A stretch of DNA of 64,000 nt from Acidimicrobiia bacterium (GTDB taxonomy: Bacteria; Actinomycetota; Acidimicrobiia; Spongiisociales; ZC4RG35): positions 2,272,001 to 2,336,000 of the forward strand of contig CBDBCY010000004.1 in NCBI GenBank assembly GCA_965203555.1, in the 5' to 3' direction. A model generated the notes under the pieces. That model was not told the origin of the DNA. It saw only the letters and a list, made by a program, of their open reading frames with translations, and did no database searches. Positions 32,779 through 36,503 of the stretch are shown in pieces (the stretch's first letter is position 1; every line of letters starts with the position of its first letter). Both the position numbers and the translations under genes were made by a program.

Positions 32779-34507
32779 ACCCCCACCGCCGCCAAACCGG
32801 TTGGAACGAGGTGTGGCCAGGCTGGCGCCAGCCGGGTGGATTACCTCGTGTGAGAAGCCGAGGAACGGCAAGGAAGAGACGCCCTCACCGATGGAACCGT
32901 TTCGGTGGAGGACGCTCGGATTGATCCCGCTTAGGTGGAACCTGCCAAAGCGGTGATTGTCGATGCGAACAGTGTGCAGTTGGGGGTGTGACACTAAGGA
33001 ACAAAAGCCGTAAAAGATCCAACCACGAATGCTTCTTGATCAGCTACGGTGTGCTCGGTTGGCTAGGGCGTGTTCATGTTTCGGAGGGTGTTGTGGATGG
33101 GGGCGAAGGTGTTGAGGGCGAGGATATGTCGAGTTTTCGAATCGGGAGAGGTTTTCGTCGGTAGCTCTTGGTTTCCTGAGAAGTCGTTCTACTGGTTAGG
33201 TCTTGTGTCCGTTTGCTGTGGGGATGACGAGCCCTTCTGGCCGGGCGGGGTGGTCAACCCCTTGGAGCAGGTGGTCCTTGTTTTGTTGGGTGTCCGCATG
33301 TGGGTGAAGACTTGTTCTGGTTTGCTTGGCGACAGGGAGGAACCTCCGATCGGGAGGGCCGGTTCTGTCACCAAGCGCCCGGTGGGTCGGGTGTCTTGCG
33401 GCAACCGTTTGGTGGACTCTTGCGGAAAAGTTTTAGTGTTTGTTTTCACAACTTGGTGATGTTTTGTCACACCCTCTGTGCATACTGTAGACATGAAACA
33501 AACAGTCAACAGTCGGCGGTCCGCCAACCTGGCCAAGTTGCTGTCACCCACCATGCCGGTCGTGGATGCGTCGGTTGAAGAACTGAAACAGCGTATCCAG
33601 TCCACCATCCGTGTCCAGAACCAAGTGGCGGCGGTCCGCGCCCAGGCGGTGTCGGAGTTGCGCCGCCGCCAGGGGACGGAGAAGGTGGAGACGATTTTGC
33701 GGGAAGACGGTCTGTTGGGCCGTCGGAAGGCACGGTCGGAGGTGGAGACCGCCAAAGAATTGGAGGAGCTGCCCAAGACGCGGGAGGGTTTCCTAAAGGG
33801 AGAGATCTCTGCTGACAACGCGCGTATCCTGGCGGGCGCCAACCAGAGGGGAACCATCATCGAGGACGAATTGTTGGACGGTGCCCGTTCCCAGTCTCCT
33901 GACAAGTTCGCGGCTACGGTACGCAAACACGAACAGAAGCGTTCAGAGGATGATGGTGTTTCCAAGTTGGAGCATCAGCGTTCCCGCCGGTTCGCGAGGA
34001 TCACCACCGACCAGGACGACGGGATGACCGTCCTGTACGGGCGTTTCGACCCGGTCACCGGCGCCCGGGTGGAGACGGCGGTGTCTCACATGATGAAACA
34101 ACTATGGCACCAAGAAGACCCCACCGAGCGGGCTACTGCGGGTCAGCGGATGGCCGACGCCATAGCCGAACTGGTCACCCGCCAAGGAAAAGACGGTCGA
34201 TCGCAGGGCGTGCGGTTGTTGTTGATCGCCGACTACGACACGGTCAGCCAACAGTTGGGCAACCCTCGCCTCGAGAACGGAACCCCCCTCCCCGCCCGTA
34301 CGCTACGCCAGTTGGCCTGCGACGCTCAGATACTCCCCGCCGTCTTCTCGGGTTCGTCGGTGCCGTTGGATTTGGGACGGGCGCGGCGGACGGCCAGCGG
34401 TTCCCAACGGGCCGCGCTGGTCGCCCGGGACAAACACTGCATCGGGTGCGGCGCCAAGGCCTCCTGGTGCCAGGCGCATCACATCGTCCACACTCATACT
34501 TATAGGC

Positions 34508-34689
34508 GTGTCCGGGCCGGGCAAGTCTGACTCAATCGTTAACCGACCTGTTGTCTTGTGCCAGATCTGTCGGCTTGTTCCGGCCCGGACACAAGCACCT
34601 CCCGAAGGGGGGCGGGGTGACTTGATAGGAGCTTTGATTTCTCCGCCACCGCGAGTGTTCCGTCCGCTGCTCCCCTTTTTCGGGCAGGT
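34508..34689 (+). ncRNA. Putative IS110 bridge RNA (target-binding and donor-binding hairpins)
   Basis: Hairpin 1: GTGTCCGGGCCGG (34508-20) pairs with CCGGCCCGGACAC (34580-92). Hairpin 2: 34597-34612 pairs with 34672-34689. Loops carry segments matching the target and donor (see findings). Confidence 0.72.
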
Positions 34690-34719
34690 CGAAAGAAGCG
34701 TACCTCGAAAGAGGGGAGG

Positions 34720-35936
34720 ATGAACATGAAGAACCGGGCTGATATCTATGGTGGGGTTGACACCCATCGTGATATGCATGTCGCAGCAGTGGTGGACACC
34801 ACCGGTCGAGTCCTGGGAACGGCTTCGTTTCCGACCGATACGATCGGCTACCAACAACTACACGATTGGTTCAGGTCATTGGGAAGGGCACTCCGAGTAG
34901 GAGTGGAAGGCACCGGAAGCTACGGTGCCGGCCTGACCCGTTATCTGACCCGGGTCGGTATCGAGGTGGTGGAAGTCAACCGTCCCAATCGCCAACTGCG
35001 CCGACAGAAGGGCAAGAGCGACACCGTGGACGCTGAAGCCGCCGCCCGCGCCGCTGCCAACGGTATGGCCACTGCTCTGCCCAAGACCGCCGACGGGCCA
35101 GTAGAAGCGATACGGATGTTGCGGGTCACCCGCCGCTCGGCGGTCAAAGCCCGCACCCAGGCCGCCAACCAACTGCACGCCCTGGTGGTAACCGCTCCCG
35201 AGCAGGTAAAACACCAACTGGTGGGCAAACCCATCCGTACCAGGGTCAGGATCTGCGCCGCGTTCCGTCCCGCCGACGACCACACCACTGTCGCCTACAC
35301 CAAGAAAACTCTCCGTCACCTCGCCCGCCGCTACCAGACACTCACCGCAGAGATCCGAGAACTAAACACCGAAATCGAACGTCTCTGCGTCCGGGTCAAC
35401 CCAGCACTCATCGCCGCGGCCGGGGTGGGCCCGGACGCAGCAGCCGCGTTACTGATAGCATCCGGCGACAATCCCCACCGCTTGCGCTCAGAAGCATCCT
35501 TTGCGGCGCCAGTCCCGTCCAGGCCTCCTCAGGACAGACCGTACGGCACCGCCTCAACCGCGGCGGGAACCGCCAAGCCAACAACGCCCTCTGGCGTATC
35601 GCCATCACCCGCATGCGCATCAACCAACCCACCCAGGAGTACGTCCGAAAACGCCAATCCGACGGCAAAACCCGCCGCGAAATCATCCGTTGCCTCAAAC
35701 GCCACATAGCTCGAGAGATCTACCACCTACTCACCAACCCCCCACCAACACCCGACACCGCCCAGCTCCGCACCCAACGACAACACCACCAGATCACCCT
35801 CACCCACGCCGCCACAGCACTCCGCATCCACCCCACCCTCCTCTCAAAACTGGAAAAAGGCCAACACCACGACCACCAACTCGCCACCACCTACCAACAC
35901 TGGCTCACCACCCAAAACCCGATTTGGAAAAAATAG
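34720..35936 (+). pseudogene. IS110 recombinase/transposase with a frameshift near 35500 and a C-terminal HTH
   Basis: GGVDTH, GVEGTGSYG, KSDTVDA (DEDD). After EASF the conserved CGASPVQASSG..HRLNRGGNRQAN..RCLKRHIAREIY continues in a different frame. Ends with an XRE-like HTH. Confidence 0.85.
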
Positions 35937-36503
35937 GAGCATCTGGCAAGACGGGGGTCCCACGAACCTGGACAACATGTGTCTTTTGTGCAGCAGATGC
36001 CACCACAAAGTCCACGACAATGACTGGACAGTACACAAAACCCCAACCGGCGAATACACCCTCCGCCGCCCATCAAGCATCGCCTGGCGACCACGGCACC
36101 GTACCCCCAACCGCTACCGCCGCCGATCCACGCGCCGACGCCCGATCAAACAGAGAAAATGACCGAACCCGCGTCCTGTCTCTATGGTTCCTGCCAGCCC
36201 GTTTTTGCCACTCTTGATCCACGCCCATCCCCAATGGTGTCCCTGGAAGCACTTTGAACACCAGATACAACACCCCGCTAATTGTTTACCGGCTCAAACG
36301 GTCATAAACAGCGCGCCACCTCCCAAACCGGGACGGCAACCCCCGCCACCTGCCGCCATACTCCCGTCACCTGCCAAACAGCGTTCAACACCTTACAGAT
36401 TCAACAAGCCTGCCCATGCACCCTGACACCGCAAAACAAACCGCTATCCGTCCACTGAATCCCAACATCTCCACCGCTACACCACCCAGGCGTGAAACAC
36501 GCC

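What the first reader, a model, noticed from the sequence alone, without database searches (positions are those of the whole stretch)
34484..35950. IS110 with a readable bridge RNA aimed at the HNH active-site codons
Seen: reconstructed target ATCGTCCA-C-TGGCAAG (codons I-V-H-W) and donor junction ATAGGAGCAT-C-ACTCAT. The hairpin 1 loop has ATCGTTAAC (34535-43; 7/9 to the left target) and TGCCAG (34559-64; reverse complement of CTGGCA, the right target). The hairpin 2 loop has ATAGGAGC (34625-32; identical to the right end 35933-40) and GAGTG (34653-57; reverse complement of CACTC). Circularisation would create TTGGAA-17 bp-CATACT, a junction promoter just upstream of the RNA. Known: this is the architecture reported for IS110 bridge RNAs. 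Novel aspects (inference): the target is a conserved motif of another multicopy element (parasite on parasite, inactivating its nuclease), the shared core is a single C, and the recombinase has a C-terminal HTH.
Basis: partly seen in the sequence, partly recalled or inferred. Interest (0 to 1): 0.78.

Follow-up and report, generated by a model that had tools for sequence, protein, structure and literature searches.

The report
Decayed IS110 element splitting HNH gene
A broken copy of an RNA-guided jumping gene (IS110 family) sits inside one of about 25 copies of a selfish nuclease gene, at a site that its own guide RNA largely spells out; it works like the known bridge-RNA systems and belongs to a little-studied branch of them.

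Summary
Window 34492-35942 is an IS110-group element flanked by one shared C (34491 and 35943). It splits a DUF222-HNH gene between the H and W codons of HHIVHW. All 23 uninterrupted paralogues in the same genome read ...ATCGTCCAC|TGGCA/TGGGC... there, which confirms the empty site. The left end folds into two long hairpins with internal loops. In 33 relatives with different target loops, the loop letters track the flanks: left guide 7.27 of 9 matches against 3.39 permuted, right guide 4.33 of 5 against 1.44, with 0 of 10,000 permutations reaching these values. Handshake positions, the donor guides and the junction promoter also covary or are conserved. This copy matches its site 5/5 plus core on the right but only 6/8 on the left. 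It is single-copy, and a 10-nt deletion breaks its recombinase; contigs from two other studies carry those 10 nt. The C-terminal XRE-type HTH is real and clade-wide. Verdict: a new member of a known kind, with modest clade-level novelties.

The parts
33478..34491 (+). 5' part of the interrupted DUF222-HNH gene. It ends ...CQAHHIVH; the last C of the His codon is the left copy of the core.
   Evidence: Pfam DUF222 E 5.6e-22. At least 25 paralogues at 45-93% aa identity. Repeat unit about 33331-36162.
34491..34491 (+). Left copy of the 1-nt core (C).
   Evidence: Empty paralogous sites; joint 34490->35943.
34492..34719 (+). Left end (LE), the non-coding region that encodes the bridge RNA. The first bases, ACTC(A), form the right donor arm.
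   Evidence: Fold z = -3.24. Alignment and consensus fold of 33 relatives: 16 of 29 pairs show compensatory changes.
34495..34500 (+). -10 box CATACT of the promoter that forms only in the circular RE-LE junction.
   Evidence: CATACT in 17 of 33 relatives, and CATAAT, CATGAT or AATAAT in 12 more, at the same place.
34506..34592 (+). Target-binding hairpin: a long outer stem, an internal loop and an inner hairpin GAC-CTGTT-GTC (34545-34555).
   Evidence: The inner stem shows GC->AU compensatory change in 7 of 33.
34535..34543 (+). Left target guide ATCGTTAA plus the core letter C. It has the same sense as the target top strand ATCGTCCA-C.
   Evidence: 6 of 8 plus core. In the family, positions -1 to -8 match in 15-22 of 22 class-A relatives and position -9 in 2 of 22.
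34559..34566 (+). Right target guide TGCCA (complement of TGGCA), G opposite the core, then the handshake letters AT (complement of the donor's ...AT before the core).
   Evidence: 5/5 plus core. In the family, positions +1 to +5 match in 24-32 of 33 and +6 in 4 of 33. GAT/GAA/GAC covaries with RE ends ATC/TTC/GTC in 32 of 33.
34597..34690 (+). Donor-binding hairpin. The outer stem is predicted; the inner part is not resolved.
   Evidence: The consensus fold did not recover this domain cleanly.
34625..34632 (+). Left donor guide ATAGGAGC, identical to RE 35933-35940.
   Evidence: Relatives L080 and L084 change C->T in both the guide and the RE.
34653..34659 (+). Right donor guide GAGTG (complement of core C plus ACTC), then the handshake letters TT.
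   Evidence: The guide covaries with the LE start (ACTCA, ACACA, ACGCA, AGTCA, ACTAA). The first handshake letter pairs with target position -1 in 28 of 29 relatives, W included (A).
34726..35501 (+). Recombinase, N-terminal part (RuvC-like DEDD domain and coiled coil). An alternative ATG lies at 34720.
   Evidence: PF01548 E 1.7e-25. 69% aa identity to the intact O2 protein and 78% to L026.
35501..35502 (+). Site of a 10-nt deletion that shifts the reading frame.
   Evidence: Alignment with 4 relatives. Contigs of runs X2 and X4 carry 10 extra nt behind 35501; those of X1 and X3 do not.
35502..35939 (+). Recombinase, C-terminal part in the other frame (Tnp domain with ...ASSG..., then the HTH). 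The stop codon TAG at 35937-35939 lies inside the left donor arm.
   Evidence: PF02371 E 7.7e-8; translation.
35760..35870 (+). XRE-type helix-turn-helix at the recombinase C-terminus.
   Evidence: HTH_31 scores 24.1 bits, below the cut-off of 27. A profile of 21 relatives hits ClgR and XRE regulators in PDB, E 8e-6. The AF2 model of O2 has four helices at 348-398, block pLDDT 80-93.
35924..35929 (+). -35 box TTGGAA of the junction promoter, inside the recombinase coding sequence.
   Evidence: TTGACA stands at this position, with this spacing, in 22 of 33 relatives. TTGGAA occurs in 2 of 33.
35933..35943 (+). Left donor arm ATAGGAGCAT and the right copy of the core C (35943).
   Evidence: ATAGGAGCATC is conserved in most of the 80 loci.
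35943..36162 (+). 3' part of the HNH gene (WQDGGPTNLDNMCLLCSRCHHKVH...).
   Evidence: PF01844 HNH E 2.1e-5.

Best explanation
Window 34492-35942 is a member of the IS110 group of insertion sequences, whose DEDD/serine recombinase is guided by a bridge RNA. The element would circularise, joining its right end to its left end across a single C. That junction would create a sigma-70-type promoter (TTGGAA-17-CATACT). The promoter would transcribe a left-end RNA of roughly 190 nt with two internal loops. The donor loop pairs with both strands of the RE-LE junction (ATAGGAGC.. / C-ACTC). The target loop pairs with the bottom strand left of the target core (ATCGTxxA-C) and with the top strand right of it (C-TGGCA). 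Two letters after each right-hand guide pair with the other partner's DNA after the first strand exchange (handshake). Recombination at the shared C placed the element, without target duplication, between the His and Trp codons of HHIVHW in one of about 25 DUF222-HNH paralogues. This separates the first His of the HNH motif from its Asn and second His. The copy in this genome later lost 10 nt in the recombinase gene. It can no longer make the catalytic serine domain in frame, so it is at best non-autonomous. Shown here: anatomy, empty site, family-wide guide-flank covariation, the deletion. Inferred: circle formation, transcription, catalysis.
For: Protein. PF01548 and PF02371 match. The intact relative O2 scores 202.6 against NCBIfam NF033542 'IS110 family RNA-guided transposase' (cut-off 140). 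Its AF2 model (pLDDT 86.7) finds the IS621 recombinase-bridge RNA complexes 8WT9/8WT6 and ISCro4 9T56 as its best PDB matches (E about 1e-11, TM 0.66-0.70 by target length). Empty sites. 23 of 23 HNH paralogues are continuous across the insertion point. For relative O2, two empty ISL3 sites read CTCATC-C-AAACC, so only one C is shared. RNA. Fold z = -3.24; 16 of 29 consensus pairs have compensatory changes. Guides. Among 33 distinct target loops (55 usable of 85 loci), the left guide scores 7.27/9 against 3.39 permuted and the right guide 4.33/5 against 1.44; 0 of 10,000 permutations reach either value. 46 of 55 insertions fit their own guide at 6/8 or better on the left and 4/5 or better on the right. 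Handshakes. The donor-loop letter pairs with target position -1 in 28 of 29, and the target-loop letters fit the RE in 32 of 33. Target position -1 equals donor position -1 in only 1 of 33. This agrees with the published finding that cognate handshake pairing blocks strand exchange (PMC11208158, section 'Handshake base pairing', passages read). Promoter. -35 TTGACA stands at 17-bp spacing in 22 of 33. W itself: right guide 5/5 plus core, left guide 6/8, first donor-loop handshake letter correct. Deletion.
Against: There is no direct evidence of activity. No RNA run holds the stretch. The runs available are contigs, which cannot show a circle junction. The left guide of this copy has two mismatches (-2 and -3), and its second donor-loop handshake letter does not fit. 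Three ISL3-gene sites in the genome fit slightly better. Nine further identical HNH sites are unoccupied. W is single-copy, so its own guide-target rule rests on one event plus analogy with relatives. 9 of 55 family insertions do not meet the match threshold with their own guide. The inner structure of the donor loop was not resolved. Rfam 15 gives no match better than E 0.46, and those weak matches are to microRNA families.
Confidence: 0.88

Rival explanations
1. The mechanism is the same, but the HNH codons are a near-cognate (off-target or partly matched) site rather than the site this guide evolved for. The evolved target would be another repeat, for example AATCCTCAA-C-TGGCAC in ISL3 transposase genes, or a sequence absent from this genome.
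For: The left guide is 6/8 while 26 of 33 relatives have 7 or 8. Three ISL3 sites score 7/9 against 6/9 for HNH. They also carry AA at -1/-2, as the donor-loop handshake TT predicts, whereas HNH has CA. Insertions that match only one arm are reported for IS621 (preprint 10.64898/2026.08.31.748434, abstract and passages read). They also occur here: L022, L023, L056 and L061 have 7-8/8 on the left but 2-3/5 on the right.
Against: No W-type copy sits in any ISL3 site. Positions beyond +5 are not read in this family (+6 matches in 4 of 33), so the extra ISL3 match at +6 does not count. 7 of 33 relatives, W among them, have 6/8 or fewer, so W lies at the low end of the family range without standing alone. 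The guide may have drifted after insertion in a dead copy. In run X4 the same element carries a different letter inside the left guide (34538 G>A).
Confidence: 0.3
2. The copy was placed by the bridge RNA of another co-resident family member (guiding in trans), because all members share the same donor arms. Its own target loop would then be irrelevant to this insertion.
For: L018 carries the target loop of L042 (own match 3/8 and 2/5) but sits in a site that fits the L028-type loop 8/8 and 5/5. L038 sits in a site that fits the L024-type loop better than its own (6/8 and 3/5 against 2/8 and 1/5). Donor arms ATAGGAGCATC / ACTCAT are shared across the clade.
Against: None of the other 32 loops fits the HNH site. 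The best are 5/9 with 2/5, and L026 with 4/9 and 4/5. W's own loop fits far better. The two other loop types in this genome (O2, O4) score 4/9 or less on the left; O2 scores 1/5 on the right, and O4's right-hand figure was not among those listed.
Confidence: 0.04
3. The frame break is a programmed frameshift and the recombinase is made.
For: None beyond the two overlapping open frames.
Against: The break is a 10-nt gap relative to all four aligned relatives. Near-identical copies in runs X2 and X4 hold 10 more nt at exactly this place. All 26 aligned relatives are continuous here.
Confidence: 0.02

Closest known systems
IS621 of E. coli and its bridge RNA (Durrant et al. 2024, PMC11208160; Hiraizumi et al. 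2024, PMC11208158)
   Same: A DEDD/serine recombinase of the same fold. An RNA encoded in the left end with separate target and donor loops. The left guides have the sense of the top strand and the right guides are complementary to it. Two handshake letters follow each right guide. A promoter is rebuilt across the circle junction. ATA...TAT flanks the donor (ATA-GGAGCATCACTCATACT-TAT here). Insertion is scarless.
   Different: Recombinase identity is only 22-24% over the structural alignment. The only base shared by donor and target is one C (32 of 33 relatives), against the CT dinucleotide of IS621; the IS621 paper itself notes that the first core letter is less conserved. The right guide is 5 nt (4 in IS621) and the left guide 8 nt. 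In 11 of 33 relatives the left guide sits one position further from the core. There is a C-terminal XRE-type HTH of about 60 aa, outside the NCBIfam IS110 model (residues 342-404). The right end is almost wholly coding.
ISEc21 / seekRNA of IS110-type elements (Siddiquee et al. 2024, PMC11187229; abstract and passages read)
   Same: The non-coding region upstream of the transposase gene gives an RNA with short matches to both target strands that overlap at the crossover.
   Different: Different host phylum and different target. No experimental data exist for the present clade.
[quoted passage not shown]
   Same: A sequence-specific IS110-family element that lives in a repeated sequence belonging to another mobile or repeated element.
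   Different: Here the sites lie in protein-coding motif codons (HNH; ISL3, IS21 IstB, TnpB, IS3, IS110 genes), not in terminal repeats or intergenic palindromes. These elements are IS110 group, not IS1111 group.
REP13E12 / '13E12 repeat' DUF222 proteins of mycobacteria, the integration site family of prophage phiRv1 (recalled; PMC1931498 passages show phiRv1 flanked by REP13E12; PMC13157036 passages on the 13E12 repeat family)
   Same: A multicopy DUF222(-HNH) gene family of Actinomycetota that another mobile element uses as a landing site.
   Different: phiRv1 uses a serine integrase (recalled), not an RNA guide. Membership of the present HNH genes in the mycobacterial family was tested only through Pfam DUF222.

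Membership tests
IS110 family (IS110 group) insertion sequence | N-terminal RuvC-like DEDD domain (PF01548) | tested here: met
   E 1.7e-25 for W. D12, E61, D99 and D102 (O2 numbering) are invariant in 26 relatives. W keeps GGVDTH, VEGTGSYG and DTVDAE.
IS110 family (IS110 group) insertion sequence | C-terminal Tnp domain (PF02371) with the conserved serine, in frame with the N-terminal domain | tested here: not met
   The domain is present (E 7.7e-8...ASSGQ...) but in another frame after a 10-nt deletion. It is met in relatives O2 and O4 (404 aa and about 407 aa) and, by the 10 extra nt, in the contig of run X4. The contig of run X2 carries one further inserted base nearby, so its frame is uncertain. 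This copy is therefore a decayed member.
IS110 family (IS110 group) insertion sequence | Long non-coding left end, short right end, no terminal inverted repeats, no target duplication beyond the core | tested here: met
   LE is 228 nt. RE is 3 nt after the stop codon. Empty sites show only one shared C.
Bridge-RNA-guided recombination system | Structured RNA in the non-coding end with two internal loops | tested here: met
   The target hairpin is well supported by compensatory changes. The donor hairpin rests on the single-sequence fold and on conserved closing GAC/GTC motifs only.
Bridge-RNA-guided recombination system | Target-loop letters covary with the flanks of insertions | tested here: met
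   33 distinct loops; 0 of 10,000 permutations reach the observed match. 46 of 55 insertions fit their own guide. W: 6/8 plus core plus 5/5.
Bridge-RNA-guided recombination system | Donor-loop letters match the RE-LE junction and covary with it | tested here: met
   W: 8/8 left, and core plus 4 right. The right donor guide changes together with the LE start in 5 sequence types. L080 and L084 change both guide and RE.
Bridge-RNA-guided recombination system | Handshake letters complementary to the non-cognate partner | tested here: met
   28 of 29 and 32 of 33. Cognate pairing is avoided: 1 of 33.
Bridge-RNA-guided recombination system | Circular intermediate with a junction promoter that drives the RNA | tested here: inconclusive
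   Promoter boxes are conserved at fixed spacing. No circle junction or transcript could be looked for, because only contigs were available and no RNA holder was listed.
Bridge-RNA-guided recombination system | Recombinase binds the RNA and catalyses recombination; reprogramming the loops changes specificity | not testable with these tools
   This needs a biochemical or in vivo assay.
XRE-type HTH domain (C-terminal extension) | Sequence profile and fold of a helix-turn-helix of the XRE/HTH_31 kind | tested here: met
   Single sequences stay below Pfam's cut-off (24.1 against 27). The profile of 21 relatives hits ClgR, XRE, SinR and DdrO chains (best E 8e-6). The model has four helices with block pLDDT 80-93. 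PF13560 is precomputed for 2 of 40 database relatives. DNA binding was not tested.

The most novel reading that the evidence does not exclude
The element belongs to an undescribed clade of bridge recombinases, in Acidimicrobiia with outliers in Rhodococcus and Cryobacterium, that departs from IS621 in three linked ways. First, the recombinase carries a fused XRE-type HTH whose coding sequence runs over the -35 box of the junction promoter. This suggests autoregulation or donor-end binding by the enzyme itself. Second, only a single C must be shared by donor and target, and both neighbouring positions are read as handshake letters. This would make the targetable sequence space much larger than with a CT core. 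Third, the clade has radiated by retargeting its loops to conserved motif codons of other selfish genes (DUF222-HNH, ISL3, IS21 IstA/IstB, TnpB, IS3, other IS110), and members can be placed by each other's RNAs. That would be a guild of hyperparasitic, mutually mobilising elements that disable competitors.
Probability: 0.3. Interest if true: 0.65.

Novelty: new member of a known kind. Interest (0 to 1): 0.45.

Why it matters
This copy is a dead insertion and changes nothing about how bridge recombination is understood. The family around it is more useful. It offers 33 naturally reprogrammed target loops with known insertion sites, a core requirement of one base, clear handshake covariation, a one-base register slip of the left guide in a third of members, and an extra DNA-binding domain on the enzyme. 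These points bear on current efforts to widen the target range and specificity of bridge recombinases. They also document how sequence-specific insertion sequences persist in small symbiont genomes: by landing in the conserved codons of other multicopy selfish genes.

Tried and rejected
Rfam: no family matched better than E 0.46, and those matches were microRNA models, so it gave no help.

Other W-type copies. The own-genome search and a search of 201 family genomes (G000 included) found none with W's target loop. The nearest relative (L026 = L096, 80% nt) has another loop and sits antisense in an IS21-like gene. Only 2 of these (L158, L209) were true clade members, both L026-type, so the scan is uninformative for W.

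Expression. No RNA holder was listed. All four runs laid are contigs, so nothing can be said about transcripts, circle junctions or excision. The 34490->35943 joints in X1-X3 are what the uninterrupted paralogues would give and are not evidence of excision.

G.U wobble as an explanation for left-guide mismatches was rejected: only 3 of 36 mismatches are wobble-compatible. On the right guide 9 of 22 mismatches are rU.dG, which is reported as an aside only.

A dinucleotide or trinucleotide core (TC or ATC) was considered, because all right target guides end GAT. It was rejected as a shared core, because target position -1 equals the donor's T in only 1 of 33 and the empty sites of W and O2 share one C only.

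The model in which the LE starts with an extra C in '1-nt offset' members was rejected for O2 by the two empty ISL3 sites.

The consensus fold paired the LE start with the right donor guide. I read this as guide-donor complementarity, not as an RNA helix.

Literature. No paper holds both 'IS110' and 'DUF222'. Six papers hold IS110, helix-turn-helix and 'bridge RNA' together; five were listed, and by title and abstract none is about a recombinase HTH. The IS110/Nop5 evolution preprint has no occurrence of HTH or helix-turn-helix. These are the only searches behind the statement that the HTH fusion and the HNH target are not in print. Supplementary tables of PMC11208160 (target lists, core lengths) were not seen and may already list this clade or 1-nt cores.

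Rows dropped. Of 85 loci (5 own plus 80), 10 had no recognisable target loop. 20 more were dropped before the counts for a weak LE-start motif (under 6 of 8), no RE within range, or a flank shorter than 6 nt. Duplicated loops were collapsed to the first copy for and restored. L072 and L076 score low because their loop is two letters longer than my fixed register.

Genomes G131 and G052 are marked unpublished. They enter only the tally '62 of 201 genomes with a match'; no sequence or claim rests on them.

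
Full report
**What is there.** The stretch 34484-35950 holds an insertion sequence. Its own DNA runs from 34492 to 35942 (1451 nt), and a single C stands at both junctions (34491 and 35943). The flanks are the two halves of one gene. Window 33478-34491 matches Pfam DUF222 (E 5.6e-22) and ends ...CQAHHIVH. 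Window 35943-36162 continues WQDGGPTNLDNMCLLCSRCHHKVH and matches Pfam HNH (E 2.1e-5). Inside the element lie a 228-nt non-coding left end and a recombinase gene in two frames. The N-terminal frame matches PF01548 (DEDD_Tnp_IS110, E 1.7e-25). The other frame matches PF02371 (E 7.7e-8). The stop codon lies inside the last 11 bases of the element.

The proposed empty site ATCGTCCA-C-TGGCAAG is no longer a reconstruction. The same genome holds at least 25 further copies of the HNH gene at 45-93% aa identity, in a repeat unit of about 1.4-1.6 kb at 69-92% nt identity. All 23 full-length copies examined are continuous across the insertion point and read HHI(V/I/K)HW. Nine carry the identical 15-nt site, and none is occupied. 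In the genome, 1601 sites read C-TGGCA. Only 20 of them match the left guide at 6 or more of 9; 10 read CATCGTCCA as the HNH paralogues do, and an 11th reads CATCGTGCA.

The genome has four copies of two related elements at 72% nt identity to W. O2, O3 and O5 are identical to each other; O4 is 88% identical to them. They have intact recombinases of 404 and about 407 aa. O2, O3 and O5 sit in ISL3-family transposase genes (PF01610). Two empty ISL3 copies read CTCATC-C-AAACC, so there too only one C is shared between donor and target. A scan of species-representative genomes gave 80 more loci. They come mostly from Acidimicrobiia assemblies, with outliers in Rhodococcus, Cryobacterium and some Proteobacteria.

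Of 85 loci, 75 had a recognisable target loop and 55 passed my filters. These 55 carry 33 different loops. The 5' strand of the loop matches the left flank at 7.27 of 9 positions, taking the better of two registers, against 3.39 after permuting loops among sites. The 3' strand matches the right flank at 4.33 of 5 against 1.44. None of 10,000 permutations reaches either value. By position, the right guide reads +1 to +5 (24-32 of 33) and not +6 (4 of 33). The left guide reads -1 to -8 and not -9. 46 of 55 insertions fit their own guide at 6/8 or better and 4/5 or better.

**Further marks of the published architecture.**
- The right target guide is followed by GAT, GAA or GAC. This matches right ends ...ATC...TTC or ...GTC in 32 of 33.
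- The letter after the right donor guide is complementary to target position -1 in 28 of 29.
- These are the handshake guides of Hiraizumi et al. (PMC11208158, passages of the section 'Handshake base pairing' read).
- That paper also reports that handshake pairing with the cognate DNA blocks exchange. In line with this, target position -1 equals the donor's T in only 1 of 33.
- The right donor guide changes together with the first bases of the left end: ACTCA/TGAGT, ACACA/TGTGT, ACGCA/TGCGT, AGTCA/TGACT, ACTAA/TTAGT.
- The left donor guide changes with the right end in L080 and L084.
- The consensus fold supports the target hairpin, with 16 of 29 pairs showing compensatory change. W alone folds with z = -3.24.
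- The promoter that would form in a circle is conserved. TTGACA lies exactly 17 bp from CATACT or CATAAT in 22 of 33. W has the weaker TTGGAA.

**The protein.** The model of the intact O2 recombinase (mean pLDDT 86.7) finds the IS621 and ISCro4 recombinase-RNA-DNA complexes as its best PDB matches (E about 1e-11). NCBIfam names it 'IS110 family RNA-guided transposase' over residues 9-341. The remaining 60-odd residues are conserved in 24 of 26 aligned relatives and absent from L078 and L081. In the model they form four helices with block pLDDT of 80-93. As a profile they hit XRE-family regulators such as ClgR, SinR and DdrO (best E 8e-6). Single sequences stay just under Pfam's HTH_31 threshold.

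**This copy.**
- Its right guide fits 5/5 plus core.
- Its left guide fits 6/8, with mismatches at -2 and -3.
- Its first donor-loop handshake letter fits, and its second does not.
- 26 of 33 relatives have 7 or 8 of 8 on the left, so W is at the low end.
- Three sites in ISL3 genes of the same genome (AATCCTCAA-C-TGGCA) fit the left guide 7/9 and both handshake letters. The HNH site may thus be near-cognate rather than ideal.
- The recombinase is broken by a 10-nt deletion relative to four aligned relatives.
- Contigs from two runs of other studies (X2, X4) carry the same element at 99% or more with 10 extra nt at exactly that place. Two runs of one study (X1, X3) have the deleted form. An intact W-type allele therefore exists in nature, and the decay here is recent. 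X2 has one further inserted base nearby, so its frame is uncertain.
- No other W-type insertion was found.

**Targets of the clade.** I scanned 20 open frames abutting insertion points. Seven carry transposase-type domains: IstB_IS21, TnpB (OrfB_IS605 plus TNB), DDE_Tnp_1, DDE_Tnp_ISL3, IS110 itself, and two rve/IS3-like frames. O2's flank is ISL3, and L026's flank is IS21-like below threshold. L022 sits in the right end of a related IS110. L042 sits in the ...RHRLNRRGDRQLN codons of another IS110 gene (for the letters; my reading of the codons). Landing in the conserved codons of other multicopy selfish genes is thus the habit of the clade. It is the coding-sequence analogue of the REP targeting and transposon-end targeting already known for the family.

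**Comparison and verdict.** In mechanism and anatomy this is an IS621-like bridge-RNA element, and it belongs to the IS110 group. The one defining feature it fails is an in-frame catalytic domain, so it is a decayed member. The differences from IS621 are:
- a one-base shared core;
- a 5-nt right guide and an 8-nt left guide;
- a one-base register offset in 11 of 33 members;
- the fused HTH;
- an almost entirely coding right end.

I found no paper on these points in the searches named under Tried and rejected. The supplements of the key paper were not available. I rate it a new member of a known kind, of moderate interest mainly for the family data set.

Noticed in passing
L018 (= L097) 1250-2725; L038: L018 carries the target loop of L042 (own match 3/8 and 2/5) but sits in a site that fits the L028-type loop 8/8 and 5/5. 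L038 fits the L024-type loop better than its own. Since all members share donor arms, this looks like placement by a co-resident relative's RNA (guiding in trans).
   Followed up: partly
window 34538 and 35501 in runs X2 and X4: The W-type element in run X4 has G>A inside the left target guide (34538). It also has the 10 nt that are missing here. Run X2 has the 10 nt plus one more inserted base at 35489. These are natural allelic variation of the guide and an intact recombinase frame elsewhere.
   Followed up: partly
33 relatives: Target position -1 is T (the donor's letter) in only 1 of 33 insertion sites (A 18, C 11, G 3). This is as expected if cognate handshake pairing blocks strand exchange.
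   Followed up: yes
11 of 33 relatives, e.g. L028 (12 copies), O2, O4, L040, L025, L024: The block matched by the left guide ends one base before the position expected from the other 22. The target has one extra base, usually a C, before the core C. The donor-loop handshake letter fits the actual base. For O2 the geometry is confirmed by two empty sites. The cause is unknown.
   Followed up: partly
own genome C4:2912883-2916636 (O5; loci L005, L014): The right end of copy O5 is interrupted by about 2.3 kb of other DNA whose edge carries a direct repeat (GATCACTGAAATTCCCC twice). The last 38 nt of the IS110 element lie on the far side. This is probably another mobile element nested in it.
   Followed up: no
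L022 1247-2740 (= L098): The element is inserted in the right end (GATTTGACAAA-C) of a related IS110, so it is a nested pair. The right flank reads TAGGAGCATC, one A short of the expected ATAGGAGCATC.
   Followed up: no
L042 left flank: The insertion lies in the codons of the most conserved IS110 recombinase motif (...RHRLNRRGDRQLN) of another IS110-family gene (Pfam PF01548 plus PF02371 on the flank).
   Followed up: partly
own genome, about 25 loci: The DUF222-HNH gene family makes up about 25 copies (roughly 1% of a 3.4-Mb genome) at 69-92% nt identity. The repeat unit starts 45-150 nt upstream of the ORF. No ends or target duplications were looked for.
   Followed up: partly
33 relatives: Among 22 right-guide mismatches, 9 are of the type rU opposite dG, the wobble-compatible kind. 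On the left guide only 3 of 36 are wobble-compatible.
   Followed up: yes
window 35924-35939: The recombinase reading frame runs through the -35 box (ATT TGG AAA) and stops at a TAG that is part of the left donor arm ATAGGAGC. Promoter, donor arm and HTH tail therefore share the same bases.
   Followed up: no
window 33478-34491 and 34492 onward: The element has the same orientation as the HNH gene. Read-through from the HNH promoter could therefore transcribe the bridge RNA region of the integrated copy, which lacks its own -35 box.
   Followed up: no
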